From positions 6,237 to 70,236 of the forward strand of contig CAXFAS010000006.1 in the NCBI GenBank assembly GCA_964001175.1: a stretch of DNA of 64,000 nucleotides. Reading direction: 5' to 3'. The notes beneath the pieces are model-generated. The model had not been told where the DNA came from, did no database searches, and was given only the letters and a program-made list of their open reading frames with translations. Positions within the stretch are counted from its first letter, which is position 1. Each line of letters opens with the position of its first letter. The position numbers and the translations under genes are program-made. Shown piece after piece: positions 6,048-44,503 of this stretch. This DNA is from an uncultured euryarchaeote. Its GTDB lineage: Archaea; Thermoplasmatota; Poseidoniia; Poseidoniales; Poseidoniaceae.

Positions 6048-6110
6048 TATATCAAAAGTGAATTTTTAACGATTTTGTAATCAAAAAGGGGATGGTTTGA
6101 CATAGGTGAA

Positions 6111-10790: not shown

Positions 10791-10794
10791 TTAA

Positions 10795-11388
10795 ATGAGT
10801 AGCCAAGAGGATTTAATTTTCGATAGCGATGGTGAAATGTTAGTCCACGAAGATTCAATCCAAAATACTACCATGACTCAAGATGAGTTGGCAATTTTGG
10901 AGGCTTCCAAAGAAGCTGCAAGATTTGTTGAAGATTTGAAGCAGGAAGTAACTCCAAACCGTGTGGCTTTGGCAGGAGTAATTTTACTACTGTTTATTGG
11001 GGCAATTTTTAGTAGCTGGTATTGGGTGATTCCAAGAGATTCAGTAATGGTGGAAAGTCTGTATCTTCAAAGAGGAGGGCATATTGTGATGTCTGAAATC
11101 CATAATACAGGTAGTAGAGAAATTACTGATGTTTCCTTAGACGTTAGATTCCAATCTCTTGATGGCGAGATATTAGAAACGATGAATATAGATGTAGAAT
11201 CAATTTCAGCACATTCTTCGGTTGCAGGAAACGACTTAGAGATGAAGATTTTAGGCTATACAGTTTGGGAAAATTATGTAATCGCAGTCGATTTAAGGTG
11301 GACTGATTACAATGGCGAGCAGCAAAATATTCTGGTAACTCATGAAGTTGGCGAATGGGCATGGGAAGAATTCAAAGATAGAAATTAA
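10795..11388 (+). CDS. Single-pass membrane protein with a small beta-sandwich-like ectodomain
   Basis: Starts 4 nt after the preceding stop. TM helix VALAGVILLLFIGAIFSSWYWVI. The HNTGSREITDVSLDV pattern resembles a CARDB-type domain. Confidence 0.5.
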   Translation: MSSQEDLIFDSDGEMLVHEDSIQNTTMTQDELAILEASKEAARFVEDLKQEVTPNRVALAGVILLLFIGAIFSSWYWVIPRDSVMVESLYLQRGGHIVMSEIHNTGSREITDVSLDVRFQSLDGEILETMNIDVESISAHSSVAGNDLEMKILGYTVWENYVIAVDLRWTDYNGEQQNILVTHEVGEWAWEEFKDRN

Positions 11389-11448
11389 TCTTGATTTTTA
11401 GCCCAAAAGACCCGAAGCAATAAAGCGGGGCGGGTCGGGGAAGATAAT

Positions 11449-16092: not shown

Positions 16093-16162
16093 ACCATTTC
16101 ATCATATTTTTTGATGAACAACAAAGGGTAGGCTTTTGATAGTAAGTCTTCCACCGGGGGTC

Positions 16163-19100: not shown

Positions 19101-19696
19101 CAAAATCATCTGCAAAGCGTCAATTAATTTATTCTGAAAAATTGTCTAGCGCAAAAGAAAGTGGATTTGTGAGAAAAATGTCAGTTAGGGTTAGCCCAAT
19201 TCCATACAGGAATCCAATCATGCAATGGCTTATTTTTACACCTCTAACCTTAGGATTATATCCGCTTGTAGCATTATTCAAATGGGGTGAAGAGCTGAAG
19301 AATAATGCTGAAATTGGACCAGGTGGGGCAAAGAATCTATTGTTCTTCATAATACCATTTTTCAATATTTATTGGTTTTTCAAGTTGATTGGAAATGTCA
19401 GAGCGTTGGAATCGAAAACTATGCATCAAACAAAGCTGTCCAGCAGTTCTCCAATTATTTGGTTCATTCTCGGAGTTATAGTATTCCCTGCACTAGGTGC
19501 TGTGGTATTCTTGCTAGGGGCGTTATTTATGATCCCAACAGTTGCGACATTCCCATCTTTTCTTTCAACGCCAATTTTAGCAATATTCTATCTAGTTGTA
19601 ACTTGGATATTCGTTTTCCCGAGTTACAAGATTTGGTCTTTATTACAAAATTCAATGAATGATTCCTGGACTATTTGGTTTGGGAAATCGGCTTAA
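16163..19696 (+). CDS. Multi-repeat surface protein (CARDB/NEW3-like beta-sandwich repeats) fused to a C-terminal polytopic DUF4234-like membrane domain
   Basis: Track ORF begins at TTG 16136. The ATG at 16163 gives a classic signal peptide (MDPRGKPQKSTHRGAIFLIWLMLFSVLPLLAPNVAAA). Repeated xTVxNTG(N/S)xxD...GWS modules. The C-terminal ~220 aa carry several TM helices and the motif NPIMQWLIFTPLTLGLYPLVALFKWGEEL. Confidence 0.6.
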   Translation: MDPRGKPQKSTHRGAIFLIWLMLFSVLPLLAPNVAAAPSINLNVSPNSMEVNPGESGEYTVVIYNTGSDPVSVNLQASNEPGEDCNGYTTTILQIPGQIEAGSSEETTMNVTLAQNVEPESTCDTTVTATIVLSTGTPDPAAPEPSTETVSTTAGDGSGSALFGVDLYFDNIEERNSQQKSLGAGSDTVTYYITVENTGQTNQSIDLVLEEVTDSGCSNPQDLTVTLSETNVALDVEETEQVTVEVEVPDGQQANDYCWELTGTVSGSNPAQNATDTVDFELEVPVLKECSMSLSKTNLNLNPGDVGTLTATLTNEGNSDWSVGMSITGDPGVGSNKWVSFDGPSSGLLPYDDGDGTKSFDLEVEPDDSRSAGSETQITVQAKDGNSLKCVKQFTVILGQSYGASLSLQTSSLGPIEPGENRTSSLTVTNTGNGEDTLRITVSSPPSGWSISLDQSSVTVGSKHGSSKSESVDFIVSVPEDALATESIELTFSVLPNGGGQAYQTKILTVTVKETHGMEVERGQNQTGRSNTILLFPITVENLGNNEDNFRFYTKRNSENWENWYTDEEGNQQTEFTIDARETAVITLNVRVKVGTENWEFTDIDVEITNLGDSNSADDNSDGLPDNKRLEKFRAVRSDVNYSMDIRFGDGDFDGISIDNRVGTLVLPPEGEAMFDLWIENTGDENYDYAVFEINGLEGIATRELMLDGEIVDIDEKFKIKRGYGLWNSTTNSFQLDDEGNLIHSYSENGINAEKEKIGKTELQAMKYKKQFQLIIEVNPGAVTGDSGILEIIVTSESNSADRTGYTSLSLEVQTIYDIQFSSDVDLHYTLEYPDKKTILVDAINQGNVRTQFNVLTPEGLRGWSVSLDYANGSCSSNSDGLTCWLDVGESIGLVVDVRPSYEAEVKDNFSFTLSVEPVETGVIDRENIEFSVLGEPYAGAFGLGIQQEHIKSGMYLIIILIFLGVIYQGAKPTLRDMNAKSSAKRQLIYSEKLSSAKESGFVRKMSVRVSPIPYRNPIMQWLIFTPLTLGLYPLVALFKWGEELKNNAEIGPGGAKNLLFFIIPFFNIYWFFKLIGNVRALESKTMHQTKLSSSSPIIWFILGVIVFPALGAVVFLLGALFMIPTVATFPSFLSTPILAIFYLVVTWIFVFPSYKIWSLLQNSMNDSWTIWFGKSA

Positions 19697-31770: not shown

Positions 31771-32472
31771 GTGGGTAGACGACGTGAAGAAAAGGTAGAC
31801 GTGGAAGAACTAGCCCGTCTAGAGAATCCAGAAGATGGTTTTTCTGGAAAGATTCGTGTCAAGATGCCAAATCGAAAAATAAACGAAATGTTTGCACTAG
31901 CAGAACAAATTCTAGGCGGACGTAGAGTTACAGTTCTTTGCGAAGACGGAGAGACTAGATTGGCTAGAATTCCAGGTAAAATGCGAAGAAGACAATGGGT
32001 CCGTGAAGGTGACTTAATTATCGTTTGGCCATGGGACTTCCAAGATTCCAAAGCAGATGTAAAACATCGGTATACTAAGACACAATCAATGTATTTGTCT
32101 AGAAAAGGCGTATTACCGGATGATGTTGATGTGTTTGGAATGAATGTATCTCATGATGATGATGATGAACATGACGATTTGTTTGGAACAATGGATCAAG
32201 AAGATTCAGATTTATTTGAAGATTCAGAAGAAGAATCTGATGATGACGTTGATGATTTATTTGGAGATTCTGATGATGATGATGAAGACGATGATTTATT
32301 TGCATCTGATGATGATTCAGAAGATGATACAGCAGAAGAATTAGCCAATAGTGAAGAAACTAAGGCGGAAGAAGAGACTGAATTTATTCCAGTAGAAGAG
32401 TATCCAGAATCTGAAGAGGCCGAAGAAGAAGATGATGATGACGATATTGATATTGATTCATTATTTGGATGA
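31771..32472 (+). CDS. eif1a: Translation initiation factor aIF1A with a ~110-aa hyper-acidic C-terminal extension
   Basis: S1/OB core RVTVLCEDGETRLARIPGKMRRRQWVREGDLIIVWPWDFQDSKADVKHRY. Tail rich in D/E with five D-x-LF(G/E/A) motifs. GTG start. Confidence 0.85.
   Translation: MGRRREEKVDVEELARLENPEDGFSGKIRVKMPNRKINEMFALAEQILGGRRVTVLCEDGETRLARIPGKMRRRQWVREGDLIIVWPWDFQDSKADVKHRYTKTQSMYLSRKGVLPDDVDVFGMNVSHDDDDEHDDLFGTMDQEDSDLFEDSEEESDDDVDDLFGDSDDDDEDDDLFASDDDSEDDTAEELANSEETKAEEETEFIPVEEYPESEEAEEEDDDDDIDIDSLFG
32152..32472 (+). repeat. GAT/GAA-rich low-complexity coding tract (acidic tail of aIF1A)
   Basis: Runs of gatgatgatga/gaagaagaa. This tract creates the spurious ORFs in other frames (32099..32305 -, 32144..32344 +, 32196..32498 -). 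Confidence 0.85.
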
Positions 32473-33485
32473 AATTTATTGGCCTTATGGGTGGTCAAAT
32501 GGTAATTAAAGACGATGAATGGGATGAACTTGCCATCAATAAGAATCGTCGTCGCAGTAAAAAAAAGAAATTCAAAAATTTAGAACATCAAAAAGATGCG
32601 GAATTTTCACATTTTGAAGAAAAGAGATTCATTGAAACCTTAGAAAATTCTTCAGGAAAATATTCTTGGATGAAAGAGAAGCGATATAAATCGATGTTTA
32701 GAGATATTGAAGGTAAGATTCAAGGCGCTATTGGAAAAGGTAGTTTTGAGTGGGTAGATAGACGAGTTTTCGACCAAGTTTTTGATAGATTAACTTTGAT
32801 GTCTTTGTATAAACTTATGAAAAATGGAGTTATTGACACCTTGGATTTCCCCGTAGCAAGAGGTAAGGAAGCCCATGTATTCCATGGCACTGATATAGAT
32901 GGAAATCCTGTTGCTGTGAAAATTTTTCATACATCAAATGCTGTATTCAAGAATTTGATGCAGTACATAGAAGGTGATCCGAGATTCACAGGTCTACGAA
33001 GAAGACATCGAGATCTTGTCGATATTTGGGTGCGAAAGGAACAAAGAAATCTTACCAGATTGGCAAAATGGGGTCTTCCAGTCCCCAAACCTCTAGGTTT
33101 GCATAAGAATGTCTTGGTAATGCAATATTTAGGAAATGAAACCTCACCATACCCTAAACTTCGGGAAGTTAAAGTTGAAAATCCAAAACCGGTTTATGAT
33201 GAACTTTTGGAGTTTTTAGCAGTTTCTTGGCAAAAGGCTAGCCTTGTTCATGGTGATTTTTCTCCATTCAATATTTTATGGAATGAAGACGATAAGCCAG
33301 TTGTGATAGATGTCGGTCAAGGGGTGGTACAATCTCATCCTAAAGCACAAGATTTCCTTGTCAGAGATGTCACTAGATTGGTTGAGTGGGGTCAAAAGAA
33401 TAATCTTGAAGTCGACCTTGCAGAAGCGATGTATGATGTATTAAACATGGATTTAAGCCACGTTAAAGAAGTACCAATCGACTGA
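32469..33485 (+). CDS. rio1: RIO-type serine/threonine protein kinase (Rio1-like)
   Basis: GKEAHVFHG...VAVKIF, LVHGDFSPFNILW and VIDVGQGV. ATGA overlap with the aIF1A stop. The aIF1A-Rio linkage is a conserved archaeal arrangement. Confidence 0.85.
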   Translation: MKFIGLMGGQMVIKDDEWDELAINKNRRRSKKKKFKNLEHQKDAEFSHFEEKRFIETLENSSGKYSWMKEKRYKSMFRDIEGKIQGAIGKGSFEWVDRRVFDQVFDRLTLMSLYKLMKNGVIDTLDFPVARGKEAHVFHGTDIDGNPVAVKIFHTSNAVFKNLMQYIEGDPRFTGLRRRHRDLVDIWVRKEQRNLTRLAKWGLPVPKPLGLHKNVLVMQYLGNETSPYPKLREVKVENPKPVYDELLEFLAVSWQKASLVHGDFSPFNILWNEDDKPVVIDVGQGVVQSHPKAQDFLVRDVTRLVEWGQKNNLEVDLAEAMYDVLNMDLSHVKEVPID

Positions 33486-34229
33486 TTATTCTTCTTCCCA
33501 GTTGATAGTCTCATCTTCAGAAAGTTGCATCATTGCTTCAACAGCCTCTTCATCTTCAGGATTTACTTGGGATGCTTTCATCCTTCTAGAGCGTCTATCG
33601 CTAATATCGGATAGTCCAGGGACTAAATGCTCAAAGCCTGTGCTCTGCGTATCGTCGGATTTCAATTCGATACTTTCGAGAGAACGATTAGACAGTTTTG
33701 ATCTTCTTCTATCTTTTTCTAAATAACTTAGCACAGAACCATGTTCAGAACCACCTGCAAGCATTTCTATTGCTTGTCGGGCGGCGAAAAGGCCGTCTTC
33801 TTCTCCAATAATTACTACAGTTGACTTGTAAATAGTAATTTCAGTATCAGTTAGATTTTCAATTAATTTTCTAATTTTACCTTGGCTTCCAATAATTCTT
33901 GACCTGATTCTTCGTTGTTGATTGGAACGTTTACCAACATAATCTCTCAAATCCACCATTTCGAAAAAGTTTTGATCTTCAAATAATCTTAAGGCAGCTT
34001 TAGGAGCCATTCCTCTGCCGATTGCTTTGATTACATTAGGTAATTTCATTGCTTTAACAGGGTCATAGGACCCAACTTCACCCCAAACAACCTCAACATC
34101 GCCAGATACCGAATCAATGTTCAATTCTTTACAACCAGCAGAATTTCTAAGAGATTTTGCTGTCGAACCACTAGCTCCAATCAAGACAGCAATCCTGTCT
34201 TTGGGAACTCTAGGCAATGCTTGGCGCAT
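33486..34229 (-). CDS. KH-domain RNA-binding protein (aDim2/Pno1-like) with an acidic C-terminal extension
   Basis: Two KH modules (RIAVLIGASGSTAKSL; RIIGSQGKIRKLIE with GxxG). Sits next to aIF1A and Rio. Confidence 0.75.
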   Translation of the reverse strand: MRQALPRVPKDRIAVLIGASGSTAKSLRNSAGCKELNIDSVSGDVEVVWGEVGSYDPVKAMKLPNVIKAIGRGMAPKAALRLFEDQNFFEMVDLRDYVGKRSNQQRRIRSRIIGSQGKIRKLIENLTDTEITIYKSTVVIIGEEDGLFAARQAIEMLAGGSEHGSVLSYLEKDRRRSKLSNRSLESIELKSDDTQSTGFEHLVPGLSDISDRRSRRMKASQVNPEDEEAVEAMMQLSEDETINWEEE

Positions 34230-34254: not shown

Positions 34255-36069
34255 TCAATCTCTTGTTCTATTAGAGATGTAAGAAATAAACAAAGATGTA
34301 ATGATAAGCATCAAAATTGATGGTGCAAAAGAAGGAGCGTCAATTATACTACTAATCGTTGCACCAGTCACTACCATGTGGTTCTTATTATTGGATTCAT
34401 CATACTCGTCAATTACATTATTTGGGTCAATTACCAATCGAAGGTCAAATTGTCCTGAACTAGGAACGGTATAATTCCAAATTAGTAATTCACTAGAATC
34501 TGAAAGAGTACCTGAACCTAGAGTTCTAGATTCTAGGACAGTCCAAGATACGGCTGAAGTTCTATCTGCAGGGGCAGATTCTAACTGGACAGTTACTCCA
34601 CCACCGTAACTTTCACTGGATTCTAGTAAACTAGTAATTGTCACATTCCCACTATTTTCACCTGGTTTGACAATCAATCTATCTAAATTGGTTTCACTGA
34701 TATTCCAAGAGAAGTCAAGGCTTGGAAGAATTTGGTAAGAGGCAGGTGAAGTGGTTATAGAATTGCCAGCAAGATCAAACACATGTGCTCTCAACATCAA
34801 ATATTGTCTTGATTTAGTAATCCAACTCGACTGGGCAACAACTCCTGAAAGTCCAGTTGAAGAAATTTGTTGCCAACTTCCTGAAAGGTCTGGTGTCTGA
34901 CCTACGCCATTTGAATCAAATCCATATTCGATATAAGAGGCACTAGTATCAATTCCGGAAGTAGAATCGATAGCTGAAAATTCTACAGGCACAGGACCTA
35001 TCCTATCTGTAGTTATTTGTTCGACATTCCATCCAATTTCTTCGGGATTTTCGGTATCGATTTGGATATTTAATTGAGATATAGGGCCGACATTACCAAC
35101 TCTGTCAGTCGCTCGTACAGAAACAGAATTAATTCCTTCATTCAAAGTTAGAACATACGTATCGCTGGTTGTAGAAGTCCAAGTCGTTCCATCTGTACTT
35201 ATTTCACTAAAATCAATTCCACTACCCTGTCCATCATCAGCACTTATTATCAGTCCAGAAAGTGTAATTGTTGAGGTATCATGCCAATTGGAGTTGTCTT
35301 GAACTGTAACCGAACTAAGACTAGGTCCTGTTCTGTCTATTCCGATAAAGATTGTTTCAGATGCTGACAAGCCTGAATCATCATAAACAGTGATTCTAGG
35401 ATTCCAAGTTCCTTCCTGCATATTACCTGATGACCAATCCCATCCATATGCGATTGTACCTGGTCCATCATTTGCTGGTGTACTTGGGCCTGGAACGTTA
35501 ACTAAACTAGCCCTTAACAAATCATCATCTATTGCGCCCCATCTAAATTCAAGAGTTCCAGTTGATTCAATATCGAACCAAGCTCTATCATTAGCTGAAT
35601 TTCCAGTTCCTATCATTGGGTTAAGAACAGTAAAAATTGTAATTTCTGGAACTTGATTATCAATTGTGAATGAGTTAGAAGTTTGAACAACACTTTCTTC
35701 AGCTGTAGAATCATAGGCAGTGGCTCTTAATGTGTAAGTTCCGTTGTCATAACTAGTAGAATCAAGGTGCGTCAGCCAAGGTGAAGAGGTCAAATTTGTT
35801 ACAGTTGTCCAAGTAACGCCATCAGAGATTTCGACCAACAGAGAAGAAACAGTTCCAGTTCCCCCAAGAGAGAATGAAACCGTGAATAATCCAGTTACAC
35901 TCTGTCCGTTACTAGGCCCATTTGAATAAGTAATGGTAACATCCGAATTAGAGAATAGTGAGACATTATCAACTAGTTCAGATGAAGGATTTGAATCATT
36001 TTCTATTTGACAAAGCACCGAAGAAAGTAGAATAATTCCAAGAATTATAGCAACCCCACCTCTTCGCAT
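34255..36069 (-). CDS. Surface protein with Ig-like/CARDB-like repeats and a C-terminal TM anchor
   Basis: N-terminal signal VAIILGIILLSSVLC, repeated beta-rich modules, CARDB-type end motif IDEYDESNNKNH, and C-terminal TM helix ILMLIITSLFISYI. Confidence 0.55.
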   Translation of the reverse strand: MRRGGVAIILGIILLSSVLCQIENDSNPSSELVDNVSLFSNSDVTITYSNGPSNGQSVTGLFTVSFSLGGTGTVSSLLVEISDGVTWTTVTNLTSSPWLTHLDSTSYDNGTYTLRATAYDSTAEESVVQTSNSFTIDNQVPEITIFTVLNPMIGTGNSANDRAWFDIESTGTLEFRWGAIDDDLLRASLVNVPGPSTPANDGPGTIAYGWDWSSGNMQEGTWNPRITVYDDSGLSASETIFIGIDRTGPSLSSVTVQDNSNWHDTSTITLSGLIISADDGQGSGIDFSEISTDGTTWTSTTSDTYVLTLNEGINSVSVRATDRVGNVGPISQLNIQIDTENPEEIGWNVEQITTDRIGPVPVEFSAIDSTSGIDTSASYIEYGFDSNGVGQTPDLSGSWQQISSTGLSGVVAQSSWITKSRQYLMLRAHVFDLAGNSITTSPASYQILPSLDFSWNISETNLDRLIVKPGENSGNVTITSLLESSESYGGGVTVQLESAPADRTSAVSWTVLESRTLGSGTLSDSSELLIWNYTVPSSGQFDLRLVIDPNNVIDEYDESNNKNHMVVTGATISSIIDAPSFAPSILMLIITSLFISYISNRTRD

Positions 36070-36213: not shown

Positions 36214-39009
36214 GTGCTTTGCAATATGTCGATGTTGTATATGGCAGGAAAGTGGCAGGCAATCATTGGCTTGATGATACTATGTGTTGCGACGCTTCCA
36301 ATTAATGCTACTGCTTATGATAGTAATGGGATAGAAGCCTCAGAAGCCCAAGTTACTCTAAGCCCATCAACAGGTTTGACACAAGGTGATTCTGTAACAG
36401 TATACCTAACTTTGACAAATACTTTACAATCTGACGCATTTGATGTTGAATTTGCTTTTTTCAAGAATGATTATACTTCGAGTCAACAATTGTTGAGAAG
36501 TGTTGTAGATATTTATGCTCAGGAAAGTGAGACTGTATCTGTAACATGGGATAATTTACAGGAAAGTGATAGTCGTGTTTGGATTGTTTTTGAGTATGGG
36601 GGTTCTGAGCAATCGTTTTACATGGACTTTGATGTAGCCGGACTACCGAATTTACGAATTATTCAATCGGATTTATCACCCGCCTCAGGTATTAATTCAG
36701 GAGATACAGTTCAACTTTCTACTCTAGTAAAAAACACAGGTTCTGAAGCAGCACAGTCCAGTACCCTTCATATCGATTTTCCAGCACCATTAGTTGATCA
36801 AGAAATTACTACTTCAGCCCTAAATACTGGCCAAGAAGAGTGGATTAATACAACTTTCATAGCACCTCAAAGCAACTCTTATTCAATTTATATTACGCCA
36901 GATTTCCATGATGATGTTATTGAAGCATCAGAAAATAATAAGGTAGAAACAGTCACTCTAAATGTTGAGCCTAGAATGGATGTTTACCATCAAGAAAATA
37001 TTACAATTACTGCAGTTGAGGGTGCTCTAGAAGGCCCTTGGACAATATCGGGTAAGTTAGCAAGAACCGGCGGTAGTGGAACAACGGTAGTTCCTATGTG
37101 GATAGAAATCGCTACAGGGCAAGGAGGAATAATCACCGCTCAACCTTTTGATGTAACTCTTCAAGGAGCAGGGTACGCAGAACAACCATGGTCTTTCACT
37201 CTTAATTCTAGTATAGTTACATCTCTTTCTGCTGGAGGATATACTTTATCTGCTCAAATTGATCCATTTGATGATCCAAATTTCCTTCAAGAGACTACTA
37301 CGAATGACCGTTCCAGTGCATTATTAACTATACTTGAAGTTCCAGATGTATTTGTAGACCCCAAAGCAAGACCATCCTCTCCACAAGTTAATTCAGGCGA
37401 GAAAGTGACGTGGCAAGTTACTGTTACCAATACTGGTGGATTACAAGTCAGTGGAAAAATTGAGTATACCTTTGAAGGAGTTACCGACTTATCAAGTCTA
37501 ATTACACTCAATCCTAGTGAATCTTATACTTGGAGTAAAGAACTTTCAACGGGAGTTGGAGCACATATTGCTCCATTCGAAGCAAATTGGATTGCAACAC
37601 AGGGTAGCTGGGATAATAATTTGATGAATAATCAGGCAGTTAGCAATATTTCAGTTGAAGCAAATCTTAGACTAAATTGGGCAACCTCTTCTCTTCGTTT
37701 AACCGACGCTTCGGGCAGTGATGTAAATTTCCCAATAGAAGAGGGAGAGACATATGTATTTTCAATAAATCTTACAAGTCAGGAATTAGGTGATTTATCA
37801 TTTGACTGTAGAAATGGTGAAAATCAAATTCTATCCACTACTGAAGTAAATGTCTCTAGTACTGGACAAAAAGTATCATTACAATGTGAATTTACTGCTA
37901 TTGCGCCTCTTTCTACTATTCAGTTAATACCTTCGGATACTTCAGTTACTACTACTTTCACCAGACAATTTTCAACTTCTTTCACCTCTGATGATGACTC
38001 ATCAGCACAATCAAAGTCTGGGACTATGACTTTAATTGGAATAGTCGTTGTAGCCTTAATTGCAATTCTAGCACTTGCAGTTTGGTTTACTAGAGAAACA
38101 GAAGAAGAAGTGGAAAGAGACATTTTCGAATACTGCCCAGCCTGTGATGGAGAACTTGAAGGCGATGAGTCACGTTGCCCTCACTGTTCATTTAATCTAA
38201 ACAAGGCTAGAAAGCAATTCCACCAATGCCATGAATGTGGTGAATCTGTTCCAGACTTGATGGATAATTGTCCGTACTGTGGTGCTAAGCAAGATGTTTC
38301 TTCATTCTTTGAGAGAAGGGAAAGAAAAGTTAGAACTGCCCCGAAGGTTGAAATTGCCCTTCCTGAGGATGATGACGATGAAATAGTTTCAGGAACTGAA
38401 AACTTTGCTGAAACCGTCAAAGAATTTGGCTATGATGAAGATCAACTAGAAGAGGAGTGGGATCAGAAGTTTGCTAAAGCAGAGGCTGAAATTGCCGAAT
38501 TAGAGCAATTATATGAAGAGGAAGATATTTCTACAGAAGGTATGACTCCAGAAGAGATTGAAGAACTAGAATCTCAGGTTACAACTAAATTACGAACACT
38601 CAAGCAATTAGGTGAAGATTCTAGTAGTATAGAGGAGATGTTAGCTGCTAAAGGTGATTTGATTTCTCATAAAGACGATGGTGGTGAATTATCGGCTAGT
38701 GATGCAGATATTAGAGGAAGATTGTATGAGATTACTGGTGAAGCGGGAATTATGCCTGGCGATGAAGTTCATGTTGGAATGACTCTTTCTGATGCCGCTT
38801 TGGCTGGTAATGAAATCGAAGAAGCACAGAGTGATTTTACCTTTGAAGATAATGAACCAGTTGCAAAATTAGAAACTAAAGATGAACTAACCCCTCAAAG
38901 ACAAAAACCCAAGCGGCGTGAAAAGAAAACCGCAGAATGTGGTGCTTGTGGTGCACAAATCCCAATTATGGCAAAAGAATGCCCTGTTTGCGGTGCAGAA
39001 TTTGAGTGA
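36214..39009 (+). CDS. Surface protein: CARDB-like repeats, single TM, cytoplasmic double zinc ribbon, acidic coiled-coil region and a terminal zinc ribbon
   Basis: CARDB patterns (GDTVQLSTLVKNTGSEAA; IEASENNKVE). TM helix MTLIGIVVVALIAILALAVWF. CPACDG-x8-CPHC...CHECG-x10-CPYCGA, and terminal CGACG-x10-CPVCGAEFE. Confidence 0.6.
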   Translation: MLCNMSMLYMAGKWQAIIGLMILCVATLPINATAYDSNGIEASEAQVTLSPSTGLTQGDSVTVYLTLTNTLQSDAFDVEFAFFKNDYTSSQQLLRSVVDIYAQESETVSVTWDNLQESDSRVWIVFEYGGSEQSFYMDFDVAGLPNLRIIQSDLSPASGINSGDTVQLSTLVKNTGSEAAQSSTLHIDFPAPLVDQEITTSALNTGQEEWINTTFIAPQSNSYSIYITPDFHDDVIEASENNKVETVTLNVEPRMDVYHQENITITAVEGALEGPWTISGKLARTGGSGTTVVPMWIEIATGQGGIITAQPFDVTLQGAGYAEQPWSFTLNSSIVTSLSAGGYTLSAQIDPFDDPNFLQETTTNDRSSALLTILEVPDVFVDPKARPSSPQVNSGEKVTWQVTVTNTGGLQVSGKIEYTFEGVTDLSSLITLNPSESYTWSKELSTGVGAHIAPFEANWIATQGSWDNNLMNNQAVSNISVEANLRLNWATSSLRLTDASGSDVNFPIEEGETYVFSINLTSQELGDLSFDCRNGENQILSTTEVNVSSTGQKVSLQCEFTAIAPLSTIQLIPSDTSVTTTFTRQFSTSFTSDDDSSAQSKSGTMTLIGIVVVALIAILALAVWFTRETEEEVERDIFEYCPACDGELEGDESRCPHCSFNLNKARKQFHQCHECGESVPDLMDNCPYCGAKQDVSSFFERRERKVRTAPKVEIALPEDDDDEIVSGTENFAETVKEFGYDEDQLEEEWDQKFAKAEAEIAELEQLYEEEDISTEGMTPEEIEELESQVTTKLRTLKQLGEDSSSIEEMLAAKGDLISHKDDGGELSASDADIRGRLYEITGEAGIMPGDEVHVGMTLSDAALAGNEIEEAQSDFTFEDNEPVAKLETKDELTPQRQKPKRREKKTAECGACGAQIPIMAKECPVCGAEFE

Positions 39010-39705: not shown

Positions 39706-40902
39706 TTATGCAAGAGATTCATCACATGCATAACGGCGAGAACAATTTTGACATTTGCCTTTTCTTTGATGATTCCTTTTCGCTCCACCTTCAATCATTA
39801 ATCTTTGAATCTCTTGAATCGATTTGTTCAAAAGTTGTTTTGCTTCTTCATCCCATTTTATCTGATGAATATCTTCATTGCCATATCTAAGAATTCCATA
39901 AGGAGTATTTCGCTTTGTATTTATTTCTACAAGCTGAAGATATGCTAATAATTGCATCTTATGTGAAGTATGAGGTCTTTTAGGAACACGCCCAGTTTTT
40001 TGCTCTACGGGTATGAATTCTCCATCAATAACTACGATTTGATCTGGCCTGCCCCTAAGTCCAGAGTTTTCATCAATGAGAAGACCGGAACTCTCCTCAT
40101 CATCCGAATATGCTATCTCAGTATCTTTTTCTAAACCAGTATGTTTCCTTGCTAGTTCAGCAGAATTTTCAGTAAGAAGTACTCTTTGAAGTTGCCATGA
40201 TGCAGCTAGAGTCCATAACATTGCTAAAGTAAATAGAATAAATCCTGCTTGAGTTCTATTTTCAGCACCAACTAAAGCAATTGAATGGATTCCAAGTAGA
40301 ATAATACTGAATAGTAATCCGGTTTCAAATTTACCTGCTTCAAACCATCCTCCTTTGAAATCTAGAGATTCCCATTCAGACTCTAGAATTTGACTTTCTC
40401 TTCTCAGTCGGTTCTTTTTTTCTCTAATTGTTTCTTCAAACCCGAGCCAGTTACGCCATGGAACTGAAATTGCTATTATAGCAAAAATTAGCAAACTGAC
40501 ACTCCACATAGCAAGATATCTTGCTAAATCTACCGGTGAGAAAACAATATCATCAATAATAATGAATGCTATAGAATCTATTGAAAGTGCAATAATTACC
40601 GTAAACCACCATGTCCAGATTACTAGATGACGCTTAAATTCTGATTGTTTTTCTTGAAATTGAATAACTTGCTCATGAATTTCAGCATGTTTCTGTTTTC
40701 CGAGTTTTATCGCCTCTCCTTGGCCAGAATTACCTTCTCTGGCTAGTGACCAAGACATTGGACAATAACTATGCCTTTCTATATCGCTGGCGCTAATTCT
40801 AAGCGGGTTGTTATTTGAATCTCTCCAAAACCCATCTTTGCATAATTTTGCGTCAAAAAGGGTGTTTGAGCGGGACATCTGATTACTTCCAGTCTCCGCC
40901 AT
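39706..40902 (-). CDS. Cas4/RecB-like PD-(D/E)XK nuclease with Fe-S cysteines, interrupted by four predicted TM helices
   Basis: N-terminal SDIERHSYCPMSW and KLGKQKHAEIH. C-terminal RGRPDQIVVIDGEFIPVEQKTG (D...ExK), HKMQLLAYLQL (QxxxY) and CQNCSRRYAC (Cx2Cx5C). Four hydrophobic helices lie between them (for example VIWTWWFTVIIALSIDSIAFIII and YLAMWSVSLLIFAIIAISV). Confidence 0.6.
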   Translation of the reverse strand: MAETGSNQMSRSNTLFDAKLCKDGFWRDSNNNPLRISASDIERHSYCPMSWSLAREGNSGQGEAIKLGKQKHAEIHEQVIQFQEKQSEFKRHLVIWTWWFTVIIALSIDSIAFIIIDDIVFSPVDLARYLAMWSVSLLIFAIIAISVPWRNWLGFEETIREKKNRLRRESQILESEWESLDFKGGWFEAGKFETGLLFSIILLGIHSIALVGAENRTQAGFILFTLAMLWTLAASWQLQRVLLTENSAELARKHTGLEKDTEIAYSDDEESSGLLIDENSGLRGRPDQIVVIDGEFIPVEQKTGRVPKRPHTSHKMQLLAYLQLVEINTKRNTPYGILRYGNEDIHQIKWDEEAKQLLNKSIQEIQRLMIEGGAKRNHQRKGKCQNCSRRYACDESLA

Positions 40903-41674: not shown

Positions 41675-44503
41675 GTGACTTTTAGTGCCCTGCTTATGGG
41701 AACTGGAGACGATAGTTACATCGACTATGGTAAGTATCAAGCCTCCCTTGAAGATTTGAGTTTTAGAAATAGAAGTATCCTACTTTGGTTTAGTTTTGGG
41801 ATAATTTGGTTATTTTTAAATATCTACGTATTCAATATTCTTTGGTTTTGGGAAGAATTCTATTTTGCAATTTCAGAGGCAGGATGGCAAGTTGTCACTG
41901 AGAATTCCGACGGCACTCAGTGTGTAGTTACTGAATATGAATCATGTGAACGTCTTGTAGGTGCAGGCGGGGTGTGGTGGTCATTACTAGGTAGTTTGAC
42001 GACCGGAATTGCGGTTGGGCCATTAGTCTTCTCTGCTTTGATATTATCATACCGAAATAAGGATGTAACGAAAAAGTGGAAAGAAGAAACATGGGGATTA
42101 TTATTTCTAATCAATCCTTCAATTATTTGGGCTTTATTATTCCTAATATGTTTGCCATATGCATGGACATTATTACCATGGGGTGAATGGTCTACAAATT
42201 GGTGGAAAATTTTTCCCTTTGGATTCGGATTGATTTGGTTGGGCGGACTTCCACCGATTTTGGTTATTAGTAATTTTTTCAAGAAACTTTTCAACCGAGA
42301 ATATAACTCAGACATAACAGTGGAAGCGGGGATTATGCCTGGTGAAGATAGTGAAGAAGGTCAAATGCCAACACAACCAACAGCTTCAGAGGTTGCTAAT
42401 TCAGTAGATGCGAGGTCGTCATATATTGAGGCTGGAATACCCCCAGAACCATCGTTAGGAGGCAGTGCAATATTTGTCGCAATTTTGGCTGCACTCATGA
42501 TAATTCCTGGAATAGTATTGCTAATAATTGGTGGCGTAATGGCAGAAGAGTCCATTGAAGGGGAAGGGAGTTCTAGTTATACTCTAGAGATCATTGATGA
42601 AGACAGTTCAGGTGACCTAGGATTCATCATATTCATTCAAGCAACGCCTGGTGATTTCAACGGAAATGGAATGCATGATTATTGTGAAAATATAATCGTT
42701 AATGCTAATCATTCGGGAGCCTGGATGAGTGACCCATGGACAGGATGGTCCTCATATAATGAGCCGGATGAAACAAGGCAAGTATTCGAACTTGAAATTT
42801 CTCATAGGGGTAGTGGTTGCGATACACAACACTGGCCGAAAGAAAAGTGGGTAAACGATATTCAATTGGTAAAAATTGGAAGAGCATGTTATGGTTGTAT
42901 GGCAGGGAACACAACAATCACTGCAGAATATACACCTGAAACTGAACCAAAACCAGTCGGGATGTGGATACAAGATGGCGAAAAAATCAAAGAATCTACT
43001 ACTTTGACAATTATTGGAGCTGTTCTGACTGGAATTGGTGGATTGTCACTCACGATAATAATTATAGTAATAATTTCTAAATCCAAAGCAGCAGCGATGC
43101 AAGACTCTGAAGGTCAAAAAGAGCCAATTGAGATTATTGAATCGAAACCAGGTCAACCGGTACGCTTCAGAATCAATGACCCTCCGAATGGGAGGGATGC
43201 ATGGGTAGGCATCTATCCTCCTAGCGCTGGTGATCAAGACCACGGTGATAGATGGAGTTGGCTCAGAGATATTGATGTGAATAACGCCACATTACCGGGA
43301 CAACCTGCCGGCGAGTGGAGCATTCGGGTCTTCAAGGACGGCGGATACAAACTCCAGCATCGCGTGGATTTCGAGATTTCTAGTAGCCCCCAACACCCCG
43401 CTAGACCAACCTCATCTGAAGGCATAGTCGGAGGAAATGCAACAATCACAACCTCCAAATCCACATACACGATTGATGAGGGTATCGATTTCTCTTTCGC
43501 CGCACCCAAACTACCCAATGACGCTTGGATAGGAATCGTACCCGTAGCGATACCTCATGGCGATGAAGCAGTTAACGATAGCCACGATACCAGTTATGAG
43601 TATCTTGGAGGCAGGACCAAGGGGGACATCATCCTGCCTAACCCTGGATTGGGAACGTGGACTCTAAGGCTTCATAATACGGACAACAATGGTCGAGAGC
43701 TTACACACGTCGTCTTTGAGGTTGTTTCATCTCCTGCTAGACAGCAAGAATCCATTGAAATTTTACAAGCAGTAGTCGGCAAACCAGTGCGTTTCAAAAT
43801 CAACAATCGTCCTAGCGGTAACGAAGCTTGGTTTGGTTTGTATCCTGTGCAAGCGACTGACCACGAGCATGGAGAACAACACCAAAACTGGATGTATTTC
43901 CGAGACGTAGGTCAAAATGAACTCTCTCTTCCAGCCAAATCTGCAGGCAGATGGAGCATTAGAGTCTTTTCAGATGGTGGATTTAACATGATTAAGCGAT
44001 TAGATTTTGATATTACCGGGACTCATGGCAATGTCGCTCAATTACACCCCTCCGATGGGCGCTACGAATTAGCGCCAGATGAGTTGTCTTGGAATGAGCA
44101 CAATGACCGTGCTCTAGCGATGGGAGGCCACCTTGTTTCGATTACCACCGCAGAGGAAAACGAACTGGTCGCACGAATCGCTGGTAAAAGAACCGTATGG
44201 ATTGGTGGAATGAGGAAAGGCTCGGGCAATGGCCCTGGTGCTGACCACTGGTATTGGTGTGACGGGCAACCTTGGATATATGCGAACTGGGCTCCAGGCG
44301 AGCCGAACAACTACGGAGGTAACGAGAACAGAATACACCTATTCGGACATAACAAATTGTGGAACGATGTCGGTGAGGATTGGAGAGGCCCCGCAGTATA
44401 TCAATTGCCAAAGGAAAAATCAATACAGTCGGCCAAGAAAATACAGTCAGCATTAAAACAGTCTACTAGAGAAAAGAAAGATAACTTTTGGGATTCAGCA
44501 TGA
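41675..44503 (+). CDS. Polytopic membrane protein with a Cys-containing extracytoplasmic loop domain, three ~95-aa repeats and a C-terminal C-type lectin-like domain
   Basis: About six TM helices. R1 and R3 share clear residue similarity by eye (PVRFRINDPPNGRDAWVGIYP... versus PVRFKINNRPSGNEAWFGLYP...), with a divergent middle copy. The C-terminal CTLD pattern is GGHLVSITTAEENELV...VWIGG...WYWCDGQPWIYANWAPGEPNN...KLWNDV. GTG start; alternative ATG at 41696. Confidence 0.65.
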   Translation: MTFSALLMGTGDDSYIDYGKYQASLEDLSFRNRSILLWFSFGIIWLFLNIYVFNILWFWEEFYFAISEAGWQVVTENSDGTQCVVTEYESCERLVGAGGVWWSLLGSLTTGIAVGPLVFSALILSYRNKDVTKKWKEETWGLLFLINPSIIWALLFLICLPYAWTLLPWGEWSTNWWKIFPFGFGLIWLGGLPPILVISNFFKKLFNREYNSDITVEAGIMPGEDSEEGQMPTQPTASEVANSVDARSSYIEAGIPPEPSLGGSAIFVAILAALMIIPGIVLLIIGGVMAEESIEGEGSSSYTLEIIDEDSSGDLGFIIFIQATPGDFNGNGMHDYCENIIVNANHSGAWMSDPWTGWSSYNEPDETRQVFELEISHRGSGCDTQHWPKEKWVNDIQLVKIGRACYGCMAGNTTITAEYTPETEPKPVGMWIQDGEKIKESTTLTIIGAVLTGIGGLSLTIIIIVIISKSKAAAMQDSEGQKEPIEIIESKPGQPVRFRINDPPNGRDAWVGIYPPSAGDQDHGDRWSWLRDIDVNNATLPGQPAGEWSIRVFKDGGYKLQHRVDFEISSSPQHPARPTSSEGIVGGNATITTSKSTYTIDEGIDFSFAAPKLPNDAWIGIVPVAIPHGDEAVNDSHDTSYEYLGGRTKGDIILPNPGLGTWTLRLHNTDNNGRELTHVVFEVVSSPARQQESIEILQAVVGKPVRFKINNRPSGNEAWFGLYPVQATDHEHGEQHQNWMYFRDVGQNELSLPAKSAGRWSIRVFSDGGFNMIKRLDFDITGTHGNVAQLHPSDGRYELAPDELSWNEHNDRALAMGGHLVSITTAEENELVARIAGKRTVWIGGMRKGSGNGPGADHWYWCDGQPWIYANWAPGEPNNYGGNENRIHLFGHNKLWNDVGEDWRGPAVYQLPKEKSIQSAKKIQSALKQSTREKKDNFWDSA

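What the first reader, a model, noticed from the sequence alone, without database searches (positions are those of the whole stretch)
32152..32472. aIF1A with a hyper-acidic tail of repeated DLF motifs ending in LFG, resembling the ribosomal stalk C-terminus
Archaeal aIF1A is normally little more than the OB core. Here the core is followed by about 110 residues, almost entirely D/E. Five copies of D-x-L-F-(G/E/A) punctuate the tail (DDLFG, SDLFE, DDLFG, DDLFA, and the extreme C-terminus DIDIDSLFG). Two known precedents make this notable:
- Eukaryotic eIF1A has an acidic C-terminal tail ending DIDDI that binds eIF5B.
- The archaeal stalk protein aP1 ends in an acidic linker plus ...LSALFG, which recruits aEF1A, aEF2 and aIF5B.

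This tail could therefore be a stalk-mimicking or eIF1A-like recruitment element for a translational GTPase, which would be an unusual feature for an archaeal initiation factor.
Basis: partly seen in the sequence, partly recalled or inferred. Interest (0 to 1): 0.65.

Follow-up and report, generated by a model that had tools for sequence, protein, structure and literature searches.

The report
aIF1A with stalk-like acidic tail
In Marine Group II archaea, translation initiation factor aIF1A carries a long acidic tail that textbooks say archaeal aIF1A lacks. The tail always ends in a short motif resembling the factor-recruiting tip of the ribosomal stalk, so it probably tethers a translation factor such as aIF5B to the small subunit.

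Summary
Window 31771..32472 (+) encodes a 233-aa aIF1A: an OB core (residues 26-119) followed by a 110-residue tail. The flagged 106 residues are 56% D/E with net charge -58. They hold five LF motifs and end DIDIDSLFG.

- **Organism and orthology:** it is a Poseidoniaceae (Marine Group II) archaeon. The gene is the syntenic aIF1A ortholog, lying directly upstream of Rio1.
- **Conservation:** all 113 distinct Poseidoniales aIF1A sequences recovered carry a tail of 42-125 aa. The linker varies, but the C-terminus is always hydrophobic-x-x-[L/F]-F-[G/A] (one copy is frameshifted).
- **Outgroups:** 32 distinct aIF1A from other Thermoplasmata, in the same synteny, stop at ...IDIF or one to two residues later; two more have a short unrelated tail.
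- **Stalk likeness:** the terminal spacing (I228/L231/F232-G) matches aP1 L103/L106/F107-G108, the stalk residues needed to bind aEF1A, aEF2 and aIF5B. The lineage's own aP0 and aP1 end GLG[S/D]LFG.
- **Specificity:** in 0.8 Mb of sampled Marine Group II DNA, only aIF1A, aP0 and aP1 have such C-termini.

The best reading is a disordered tether presenting a stalk-like ligand, most likely for aIF5B. Binding is untested. The likeness to the eukaryotic DIDDI terminus is superficial. I found no description of this in the literature, which states that archaeal aIF1A has no C-terminal tail.

The parts
31771..32472 (+). aIF1A gene, 233 aa, GTG start, TGA stop
   Evidence: ORF list and sequence. Pfam PF01176 and NCBIfam TIGR00523/NF003084 score above their cut-offs. 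There are 100%-identical proteins on 24 public contigs.
31846..32127 (+). OB-fold core plus C-terminal helical part of aIF1A (residues 26-119)
   Evidence: NCBIfam match to residues 26-119. The region aligns to M. jannaschii 1JT8 and to P. abyssi aIF1A chains.
32125..32139 (+). VDVFG junction (residues 119-123), the position where tail-less relatives end (...IDIF-COOH)
   Evidence: Thermoplasmata orthologs stop at ..S[IV]D[IV]F, whereas Marine Group II reads ..VD[VL]FG and continues. The junction is invariant in alignment A3.
32140..32469 (+). Acidic C-terminal tail (residues 124-233)
   Evidence: Residues 128-233 are 56% D/E with net charge -58. AlphaFold2 predicts no regular structure, but the model has low confidence. 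The tail is present in 113 of 113 distinct Poseidoniales sequences.
32173..32187 (+). First LF motif, DDLFG (residues 135-139), within the conserved HDDDDEHDDLFG
   Evidence: D129-E133, H134, D136, F138 and G139 are invariant in A3. A related first motif (DDFDDEDGLFA, DDYDDAGIFG, EFSDTFG) occurs in other clades.
32206..32220 (+). Second LF motif, SDLFE (residues 146-150)
   Evidence: Read from the sequence; F149 is invariant in A3.
32251..32265 (+). Third LF motif, VDDLFG (DDLFG = residues 161-165)
32290..32304 (+). Fourth LF motif, DDLFA (residues 174-178)
32238..32316 (+). 39-nt tandem DNA repeat encoding two DDLF[GA] units
   Evidence: Tandem Repeats Finder: period 39, 2.1 copies, 83% matches. 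Close relatives differ by whole in-frame units: P0037 has one fewer, P0024 has an exact duplication and P0057 has one more.
32380..32406 (+). EFIPVEEYP motif (residues 204-212), a second conserved island in the tail
   Evidence: F205, V208, E209, E210, Y211 and P212 are invariant in A3. [VA]VEEYP or PVEE[YF]P is seen in many Poseidoniaceae clades and is absent in Thalassarchaeaceae.
32431..32469 (+). Terminal motif DDDDDIDIDSLFG (residues 221-233); core I228-x-x-L231-F232-G233-COOH
   Evidence: 112 of 112 in-frame tails end hydrophobic-x-x-[LFVM]-F-[GASD]; two of them add PA. One further tail carries the motif out of frame. The spacing and C-terminal position match aP1 L103/L106/F107/G108 (PMC5887453).
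32469..33485 (+). Rio1 kinase gene; its ATG overlaps the aIF1A stop (ATGA)
   Evidence: Pfam RIO1, E 2e-50. Rio1 lies directly downstream on the same strand in both tailed and tail-less loci.
33486..34229 (-). KH-domain protein (arCOG04150, Dim2/Pno1-like), inverted here
   Evidence: NCBIfam TIGR03665, E 9e-51. It lies on the same strand in tail-less relatives and is inverted in 75 tailed loci.

Best explanation
The tail is an intrinsically disordered, strongly acidic tether. [quoted passage not shown]

aIF1A sits in the A site of the 30S initiation complex. From there the tail would capture a stalk-binding translation factor by inserting I228, L231 and F232 into a hydrophobic groove. The most likely partner is aIF5B, which works next to aIF1A. 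This would couple aIF1A to aIF5B before the 50S subunit arrives with its seven stalk tails, a job done in eukaryotes by the eIF1A C-terminal tail.

Poseidoniaceae have added 1-5 internal DDLF[G/A] repeats by in-frame tandem duplication. These would enlarge the capture radius or the avidity.

**Shown:** orthology, the architecture of the tail, order-wide conservation of the terminal motif against a variable linker, its match to the stalk pattern, its absence in sister lineages, and transcription.

**Inferred:** disorder, helix formation on binding, the identity of the partner, and the effect on subunit joining.
For: - **Orthology.** The gene is aIF1A. It is the syntenic ortholog upstream of Rio1 in both tailed and tail-less genomes.
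- **Conservation.** 112 of 112 in-frame Poseidoniales tails end in the same hydrophobic pattern, and one more carries it out of frame. Tail length ranges 42-125 aa and D/E content 29-56%. A short linear motif on a linker of free sequence is what this pattern suggests.
- **Match to the stalk.** P. horikoshii aP1 ends EALAGLSALFG. L103S, L106S and F107S abolish binding to aEF1A, aEF2 and aIF5B, and the three residues lie on one helix face (PMC5887453; PMC6791870). The window protein has I228, L231 and F232 at the same i, i+3, i+4 spacing, ending in G-COOH.
- **Same-lineage stalk.** Marine Group II aP1 and aP0 end GF[EDG]GLG[SD]LFG behind an acidic stretch. Many aIF1A copies end ..DLFG, exactly like aP0.
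- **Specificity.** Among 1,932 other ORFs of at least 80 aa in 0.8 Mb of Marine Group II DNA, only one (probably spurious) has the pattern. With a position matrix built from 97 non-Marine-Group-II aP1 termini, aIF1A termini have a median of -7.5 bits. Other ORFs have a median of -32 bits and a 99th percentile of -13 bits.
- **Proximity to aIF5B.** In P. abyssi complexes the aIF1A C-terminal helix, from which this tail emerges, contacts aIF5B domain IV (PMC9226500).
- **Expression.** The tail-coding DNA occurs in marine metatranscriptome assemblies with no differences.
Against: - No binding or co-folding test was possible.
- The motif lacks the stalk's G-L-G. The position equivalent to G102 is Asp, and G102S abolishes aEF2 binding.
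- With the stalk matrix, true stalk termini score 15.7-23.3 bits, while aIF1A reaches at most 6.4 bits.
- About 90% of the internal repeats lack the third hydrophobic residue.
- The AlphaFold2 monomer model is of low confidence throughout (mean pLDDT 46.7), so it shows neither disorder nor a helix.
- The Marine Group II aIF5B was not recovered, so no complementary feature was examined.
- The 0.8 Mb background sample is biased towards the neighbourhoods of aIF1A and aP1.
Confidence: 0.45

Rival explanations
1. Eukaryote-type mode. The acidic tail and its terminus bind the helical subdomain of aIF5B domain IV, as the eIF1A C-terminal DIDDI does with eIF5B-D4, rather than the stalk site on the G domain. 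The partner is the same but the docking site differs.
For: - The window protein ends DDDDDIDIDSLFG, close in composition to eukaryotic ..DDDEDIDDI.
- HMMER extends the alignment with yeast eIF1A (3wbk_C, listed only as eukaryotic translation initiation factor 1A) into the tail, to residue 158.
- The domain IV helical subdomain exists in archaeal aIF5B although archaeal aIF1A normally has no tail (PMC5009744).
- The tail starts at the helix that touches aIF5B domain IV.
Against: - DIDID is confined to one subclade.
- The order-wide invariant is hydrophobic-x-x-[L/F]-F-G, not [DE]-[IL]-D-D-[IL]-COOH. DEDIDDI scores -39 bits on the stalk matrix, and the two patterns differ in register.
- In A. 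pernix and P. abyssi aIF5B an extra C-terminal helix occupies the surface that binds the eIF1A tail in eukaryotes. Whether Marine Group II aIF5B has that helix is unknown.
Confidence: 0.15
2. Ribosome-directed or self-directed tail. The polyanionic tail folds back on the basic OB surface and N-terminal tail of aIF1A, or lies on basic ribosomal or aIF2/aIF1 surfaces. In this way it would tune 30S binding, start-codon selection or premature subunit association. The LF motifs would serve as low-affinity anchors rather than as a GTPase ligand.
For: - In human eIF1A the C-terminal tail contacts the OB domain and inhibits eIF5B binding (PMC5009744).
- The core is basic (20% K/R) and the tail has net charge -58.
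- The repeated unit looks like a copy of aIF1A's own ancestral C-terminus..[IV]D[IV]F, which in P. abyssi belongs to the C-terminal helix packed at the aIF1A/aIF5B interface.
Against: - A purely electrostatic role does not explain an invariant hydrophobic triad placed exactly at the free C-terminus in 113 species while acidity varies from 29% to 56%.
- It also does not explain why the only other proteins with this ending are aP0 and aP1.
Confidence: 0.15
3. A different partner. The stalk-like terminus binds another protein: the ATPase ABCE1 (a known stalk ligand that stays on 30S after recycling), aEF1A or aEF2 (acting as a decoy or a gate), the co-transcribed Rio1 kinase, or the 20S proteasome through an HbYX-like L-F-G end.
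For: - The aP1 tail also binds aABCE1 and both nucleotide states of aEF1A (PMC6791870).
- The aIF1A stop codon overlaps the Rio1 start codon, and the two genes are syntenic throughout Thermoplasmata.
Against: - Synteny with Rio1 predates the tail, since tail-less relatives have it too.
- Asp at the G102-equivalent position argues against aEF2.
- Nothing here points specifically to the proteasome or to ABCE1.
Confidence: 0.12
4. Neutral low-complexity expansion. GAT/GAA slippage in an acid-shifted proteome produced a tolerated tail with no specific function, and the LF motifs are by-products of duplicating the original ..DVFG end.
For: - A 39-nt tandem repeat is present, and close relatives differ in copy number.
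- The window's proteins are generally acidic, with D/E above K/R in most ORFs.
- Neighbouring KH and Rio1 proteins also carry extensions.
Against: - The terminal motif is retained across both families of the order, although the linkers are unalignable between them.
- A tail is retained in every Poseidoniales genome examined.
- The first motif and the EEYP island are also conserved within Poseidoniaceae.
- The tail-coding DNA is transcribed.
Confidence: 0.05

Closest known systems
Canonical archaeal aIF1A (M. jannaschii 1JT8; P. abyssi aIF1A in 30S initiation complexes 5JB3, 6SW9, 7ZAG)
   Same: The OB core and C-terminal helix are the same (E 6e-27 to 7e-23, aligned over residues 26-118). The family models match, and so does the aIF1A-Rio1 synteny.
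   Different: These proteins are 102-134 aa long and end a few residues after the helix. [quoted passage not shown] The window protein adds 110 residues.
C-terminal domain of the archaeal ribosomal stalk proteins aP1 and aP0 (..EEEE..GLxxLFG-COOH)
   Same: - Both have an acidic flexible segment ending in L-F-G at the free C-terminus.
- Both have hydrophobic residues at -5, -2 and -1, the positions (L103, L106, F107) required to bind aEF1A, aEF2 and aIF5B.
- The lineage's own aP0 ends ..GLGDLFG, and many aIF1A copies end ..DLFG.
- Both are multi-copy: seven tails per stalk, and up to six LF motifs per aIF1A.
   Different: - There is no Ribosomal_60s or aP1 N-terminal dimerisation domain, and the protein is not part of the 50S subunit.
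- G-L-G is replaced by D-[ILV]-[DEN].
- The stalk-matrix score is far below that of true stalks.
- The copies lie in cis on one chain, and most internal copies lack the -5 hydrophobic residue.
Eukaryotic eIF1A C-terminal tail (acidic, F-G-containing elements, terminal DIDDI that binds eIF5B domain IV)
   Same: Both are long acidic tails on the same factor, starting at the same point after ..LP(x)n D-x-F-G. Both have F-G motifs in an acidic context and an Asp/Ile-rich end. Yeast eIF1A aligns into the tail. The functional logic of coupling factor 1A to factor 5B would also be shared.
   Different: - The terminal motif differs: ..[IL]-x-x-L-F-G against ..[IL]-D-D-[IL].
- The tail is 110 aa against about 25-45 aa.
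- It is absent from all sister Thermoplasmata, so it arose independently within Poseidoniales.
- There is no basic N-terminal tail of the eukaryotic type.

Membership tests
aIF1A/eIF1A (PF01176, TIGR00523) | An S1-like OB domain scoring above the curated thresholds | tested here: met
   Pfam 70.3 bits (cut-off 30.2). TIGR00523 116.3 bits (cut-off 102.9). NF003084 122.3 bits (cut-off 91).
aIF1A/eIF1A (PF01176, TIGR00523) | Orthologous genomic position (aIF1A-Rio1 gene pair of archaea) | tested here: met
   Rio1 lies directly downstream on the same strand in 118 of 127 tailed loci and 37 of 40 tail-less loci. The stop and start codons overlap in the window.
Archaeal P-stalk C-terminal factor-binding motif (aP1/aP0 C-terminal domain) | The motif sits at the extreme free C-terminus, behind an acidic flexible segment | tested here: met
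   The window protein ends ..EEEDDDDDIDIDSLFG-stop. The same placement occurs in 112 of 112 in-frame relatives.
Archaeal P-stalk C-terminal factor-binding motif (aP1/aP0 C-terminal domain) | Hydrophobic triad equivalent to L103, L106 and F107 (i, i+3, i+4), followed by Gly | tested here: met
   I228, L231, F232 and G233 in the window. Across relatives, position -5 is I/L/V (or F), -2 is L/F, -1 is F and 0 is G/A. The reference residues come from PMC5887453.
Archaeal P-stalk C-terminal factor-binding motif (aP1/aP0 C-terminal domain) | Conserved G-L-[GSA] preceding x-L-F-G, including G102 | tested here: not met
   97 of 102 non-Marine-Group-II aP1 end in LFG, and nearly all of those end GL[GSA]xLFG. 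aIF1A has D-[ILV]-[DEN] there. Its matrix score is at most 6.4 bits against 15.7-23.3 bits for the stalk.
Archaeal P-stalk C-terminal factor-binding motif (aP1/aP0 C-terminal domain) | Carried by a stalk protein (aP1 N-terminal dimerisation domain or the aP0 body) | tested here: not met
   The only Pfam domain is eIF-1a.
Archaeal P-stalk C-terminal factor-binding motif (aP1/aP0 C-terminal domain) | Binds aEF1A, aEF2, aIF5B or ABCE1 | not testable with these tools
   No multimer prediction or assay was available, and the Marine Group II factors were not recovered.
Eukaryotic-type eIF1A C-terminal tail | A long acidic unstructured extension after the helical subdomain | tested here: met
   A 110-aa tail, of which residues 128-233 are 56% D/E. 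The yeast eIF1A alignment runs into it. Disorder itself is not shown, because the AlphaFold2 model has low confidence.
Eukaryotic-type eIF1A C-terminal tail | Terminal [DE]-[IL]-D-D-[IL]-COOH (DIDDI) | tested here: not met
   All tails end ..[LF]F[GASD]. Eukaryotic representatives in the same search end DLDDL, DIDDL or DLADI. DIDID occurs only in the window's subclade.
Eukaryotic-type eIF1A C-terminal tail | Common descent with the eukaryotic tail | tested here: not met
   34 distinct aIF1A orthologs from other Thermoplasmata lack the tail, as do the nearest 50-58%-identity cluster representatives. The tail is therefore a gain within Poseidoniales.
Eukaryotic-type eIF1A C-terminal tail | Binds eIF5B/aIF5B domain IV | not testable with these tools
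   The same limitation as for stalk-factor binding.

The most novel reading that the evidence does not exclude
Poseidoniales have built a 'mini-stalk' on the small subunit. aIF1A carries one to six stalk-type ligands on a tether roughly 100 residues long. These concentrate aIF5B (or another stalk client) at the 30S initiation complex and hand it over to the 50S stalk at subunit joining. This would be an independent, convergent invention of the eukaryotic coupling between the eIF1A tail and eIF5B, made by duplicating aIF1A's own ..[IV]D[IV]F end. It would also be the first case of P-stalk motif mimicry by a cellular translation factor.
Probability: 0.3. Interest if true: 0.8.

Novelty: new variant of a known kind. 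Interest (0 to 1): 0.62.

Why it matters
- **It contradicts a standard statement.** Structural papers and reviews say that archaeal aIF1A has no C-terminal tail, and that the aIF1A-aIF5B tail contact is specific to eukaryotes. Here a whole order of very abundant, uncultured ocean archaea carries such a tail.
- **It would be a new mechanism.** If the tail binds aIF5B or another stalk client, it is a natural convergent replay of the eukaryotic tail mechanism. It would also be the first stalk-motif mimic found on a translation factor.
- **It is testable with simple reagents.** Peptides and synthetic genes could show what the stalk motif recognises and why coupling factor 1A to factor 5B is advantageous.
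- **It suggests an origin.** A tail could arise from the ancestral ..D-x-F(G) end of factor 1A by duplication.

Tried and rejected
- **First genome scan.** The scan with the full protein was swamped by poly-acidic patterns and gave only 12 loci. I redid it with core-only alignments.
- **AlphaFold2 monomer on 15 close homologs.** Mean pLDDT was 46.7, and even the OB core was poorly modelled. The model is not usable as evidence for disorder or for a terminal helix, so I ran no fold search.
- **Marine Group II aIF5B.** No G-domain motif was found in any fetched locus or in the window. The ranked protein searches list only the best 120 hits, so a query from another archaeon would not have reached the Marine Group II copy. 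I left this step out rather than spend a large search on a gamble.
- **Literature.** Searches for Poseidoniales with 'initiation factor 1A', and for stalk mimicry with LFG, found nothing. The primary paper on the stalk-aIF5B structure (PMC6066748) is not held. I cite it only through PMC6791870 and PMC7531240.
- **Cluster look-up.** It gave no taxon names for the nearest tail-less proteins. Whether any of them are Marine Group III remains open.
- **Out-of-frame representatives.** Several 50%-cluster representatives have basic or Cys/Thr-rich 'tails' (P0121-P0123, P0125, P0126, P0129). I rejected these as alternative isoforms: they are out-of-frame readings of the same GAT/GAA-rich DNA. L262 shows the true motif in the +1 frame.
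- **A tail-less paralog in Marine Group II.** None was seen among the named Poseidoniales genomes, and the tailed gene occupies the orthologous site. This is not an exhaustive exclusion.
- **Second RIPGK match.** A match on the minus strand of the window near 37836 lies antisense inside another ORF, and I took it as chance.
Full report
**What is there**

Window 31771..32472 (+) is a 233-codon ORF with a GTG start and a TGA stop. Residues 38-100 match Pfam eIF-1a (E 1.1e-19). Residues 26-119 match NCBIfam aIF1A models above their curated cut-offs.

Beyond residue 123 (..LPDDVDVFG) the protein continues for 110 residues. The flagged span 32152..32472 is residues 128-233 plus the stop codon. It holds 35 D, 24 E and one K, which is 56% D/E and net charge -58.

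Five of the six Leu in the tail are followed by Phe. No shuffle out of 100,000 reached that number. Two motifs lie in a 39-nt tandem DNA repeat at 32238..32316.

'Almost entirely D/E' is really 56%. SDLFE does not fit a strict D-x-L-F.

**Organism and orthology**

Identical or near-identical proteins come from marine metagenomes, and the named ones are Candidatus Poseidoniaceae (Marine Group IIa). A 10.5-kb marine metagenome contig matches 31600-32700 without a difference. Metatranscriptome contigs match 32046-32429 exactly, so the tail-coding DNA is transcribed.

The Rio1 kinase start codon overlaps the aIF1A stop codon. Rio1 follows aIF1A on the same strand in 118 of 127 tailed loci and in 37 of 40 tail-less loci. 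The tailed gene is therefore the ortholog of ordinary aIF1A, not a side copy.

**Distribution**

From two scans of one genome per GTDB species I recovered 148 distinct aIF1A sequences.
- 112 sequences, from genomes named Poseidoniales, Poseidoniaceae, Poseidonia, Thalassarchaeaceae or Thalassarchaeum, or with the same core sequence, have tails of 42-125 aa (median 94.5).
- One more, L262, has the tail's end in the +1 frame. This is probably an assembly error.
- 32 distinct sequences from other Thermoplasmata (Methanomassiliicoccales, SG8-5 and unnamed Thermoplasmata) end at ..S[IV]D[IV]F or one to two residues later. Two more have a short unrelated tail of 20-24 aa.

A word-index-free search of 1.84 billion cluster representatives with the core alone gave the same picture. 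Proteins with at least 77% core identity are long. The next group, at 50-58% identity, ends at ..DIF. A few distant archaeal aIF1A carry acidic tails of about 40 aa, but none ends in LFG. Solved archaeal aIF1A chains are 102-134 aa and align only to residue 118.

**Anatomy of the tail across the order**

The linker is free to vary. It cannot be aligned between the two families, and its D/E content ranges from 29% to 56%.

The C-terminus is fixed. All 112 in-frame tails end hydrophobic(-5)-x-x-[L/F](-2)-F(-1)-[G/A](0). The commonest endings are DIDSFFG (35), DIDALFA (26), DIDSLFG (14), EINDLFG (8), DLEDLFG (7) and GVDELFG (6).

Most Thalassarchaeaceae have only this terminal motif on a linker of about 55 aa. 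Poseidoniaceae add a conserved first motif (HDDDDEHDDLFG, DDFDDEDGLFA), between 0 and 4 further DDLF[G/A] units, and often a [PA]VEEYP island. Close relatives differ by whole in-frame units.

The unit [VI]-D-D-L-F-G and the terminal I-D-S-[LF]-F-G resemble the protein's own junction ..VD[VL]FG and the ancestral terminus ..ID[IV]F-COOH. Duplication of the original end is a simple origin for the tail. This is an inference.

**Comparison with the stalk**

A degenerate DNA pattern for the aP1 N-terminus returned 120 archaeal loci.
- 97 of 102 complete aP1 from outside Marine Group II end in LFG, and nearly all of those end GL[GSA]xLFG.
- Eleven Marine Group II loci give aP1 ending ..GFEGLGSLFG or ..GFGGLGDLFG. 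The adjacent aP0 ends ..GF[GDA]GLG[SD]LFG.

In P. horikoshii aP1 (..EALAGLSALFG), L103, L106 and F107 lie on one helix face. Each is required for binding aEF1A, aEF2 and aIF5B, and G102 is additionally needed for aEF2 (PMC5887453). The conserved Phe sits in a hydrophobic pocket in the complexes with aEF1A, aEF2, aIF5B and aABCE1 (PMC6791870).

The window protein has I228, L231, F232 and G233 in the same register and at the free C-terminus. Asp replaces the G102 equivalent.

Specificity was checked in 0.8 Mb of Marine Group II DNA. Of 1,932 ORFs of at least 80 aa other than aIF1A, aP0 and aP1, one (probably spurious) has the pattern. On a matrix built from the non-Marine-Group-II stalk termini the scores are:

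| Class | Score (bits) |
|---|---|
| aIF1A termini | median -7.5, maximum 6.4 |
| Other ORFs | median -32, 99th percentile -13 |
| True stalk termini | 15.7-23.3 |

. The aIF1A ending is therefore clearly stalk-like. It is not a stalk terminus in the strict sense.

**Comparison with the eukaryotic tail**

The literature treats the eIF1A tail and its DIDDI-eIF5B domain IV contact as specific to eukaryotes. It states that archaeal aIF1A lacks a tail (PMC9226500, PMC7531240, PMC5009744).

The window's ..DIDIDSLFG recalls DIDDI, and HMMER carries the yeast eIF1A alignment into the tail. However, DIDID is limited to one subclade, and the general invariant is the stalk-type triad. The sister lineages lack the tail, so it was gained within Poseidoniales. 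Any likeness to the eukaryotic tail is convergent.

**Most likely mechanism**

I propose a disordered polyanionic tether that presents a stalk-like ligand for a hydrophobic groove on a translation factor. aIF5B is the best candidate for three reasons.
- It is a known stalk client.
- It acts beside aIF1A on the 30S complex, where the aIF1A C-terminal helix already touches its domain IV.
- Eukaryotes solve the same problem with a tail on the same factor.

The extra repeats in Poseidoniaceae would raise avidity or reach, by analogy with the multivalent stalk (PMC7768734, listed).

I put this at 0.45. The main weaknesses are these:
- There is no binding test.
- The terminus has Asp at the G102 position and lacks G-L-G.
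- The internal repeats mostly lack the third hydrophobic residue.
- The AlphaFold2 model is uninformative.
- The Marine Group II aIF5B was not examined.

The rivals are docking on aIF5B domain IV in the eukaryotic manner (0.15), a self-directed or ribosome-directed regulatory tail (0.15), another partner such as ABCE1, aEF1A or Rio1 (0.12), and neutral low-complexity growth (0.05).

**Novelty and verdict**

Searches of the held literature found no description of this feature. It is a new variant of a known kind: an ordinary aIF1A core with an order-specific tail that combines the logic of the eukaryotic eIF1A tail with the motif of the P-stalk.

Its interpretation is partly supported: conservation and stalk likeness hold, the DIDDI likeness is weak, and the interaction is untested.

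Noticed in passing
L092, L101, L103, L116, L149, L153, L167, L193, L200, L204, L209 (aP1 and adjacent aP0 genes): Marine Group II stalk proteins end GF[EDG]GLG[SD]LFG. They have an extra Phe at -8 that about 100 other archaeal aP1 in the same scan lack. From memory, this recalls the eukaryotic P1/P2 ending ..GFGLFD.
   Followed up: partly
window 32125..32139; loci L211-L290: Tail-less Thermoplasmata aIF1A end ..[SK][IV]D[IV]F-COOH, while the Marine Group II core reads ..VD[VL]FG before the tail. The tail's repeat unit and terminal motif look like copies of this ancestral end.
   Followed up: partly
window 33486..34229 (-) and loci L001-L090, L211-L290: The KH-domain gene (arCOG04150) after Rio1 lies on the same strand in tail-less Thermoplasmata and in 46 tailed loci. 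It is inverted in 75 tailed loci, including the window. The window's KH protein also has an acidic C-terminal extension of about 65 aa (..EDETINWEEE) beyond the family model.
   Followed up: partly
P0121, P0122, P0123, P0125, P0126, P0129; L262 1930-2035: Many 50%-cluster representatives of Marine Group II aIF1A have out-of-frame tails that are basic or Thr/Met/Cys-rich. L262 carries the true ..DDIDSFFG end in the +1 frame. The GAT/GAA-rich repeat region appears prone to assembly or sequencing frameshifts, and such products seed their own clusters.
   Followed up: partly
window 49062..51761 (+): An 899-aa protein has a CD36-family Pfam match (residues 67-151, E 3.8e-12) and a hydrophobic C-terminus. 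This is an unusual family for an archaeon.
   Followed up: no
window 3585..19696 (+), 36214..39009 (+), 41675..44503 (+), 34255..36069 (-): A run of very large, acidic, lysine-poor proteins carries PKD, subtilase S8 + CARDB, Ig-like, C-type lectin and double-zinc-ribbon domains. One 1,559-aa protein has no Pfam match. They look like secreted or surface proteins of a protein-degrading heterotroph.
   Followed up: no
window 39706..40902 (-): A 398-aa protein has a Cas4/PD-(D/E)XK nuclease domain at its C-terminus. I did not look for a CRISPR array or other cas genes.
   Followed up: no
window 32469..33485 (+): The Rio1 kinase has an N-terminal extension of about 100 aa, rich in Lys/Arg and Glu, ahead of the RIO domain (residues 137-313). 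Its ATG overlaps the aIF1A stop codon (ATGA), which suggests translational coupling.
   Followed up: no
P0187, P0244, P0251, P0263, P0268: A few distant, unnamed archaeal-type aIF1A representatives carry acidic tails of about 40 aa (..EEKTEDIVEE..TEEETEDEE..ESGGEESE) with no LFG or DIDDI end. Short acidic tails on aIF1A may therefore be less rare in archaea than the literature implies.
   Followed up: no
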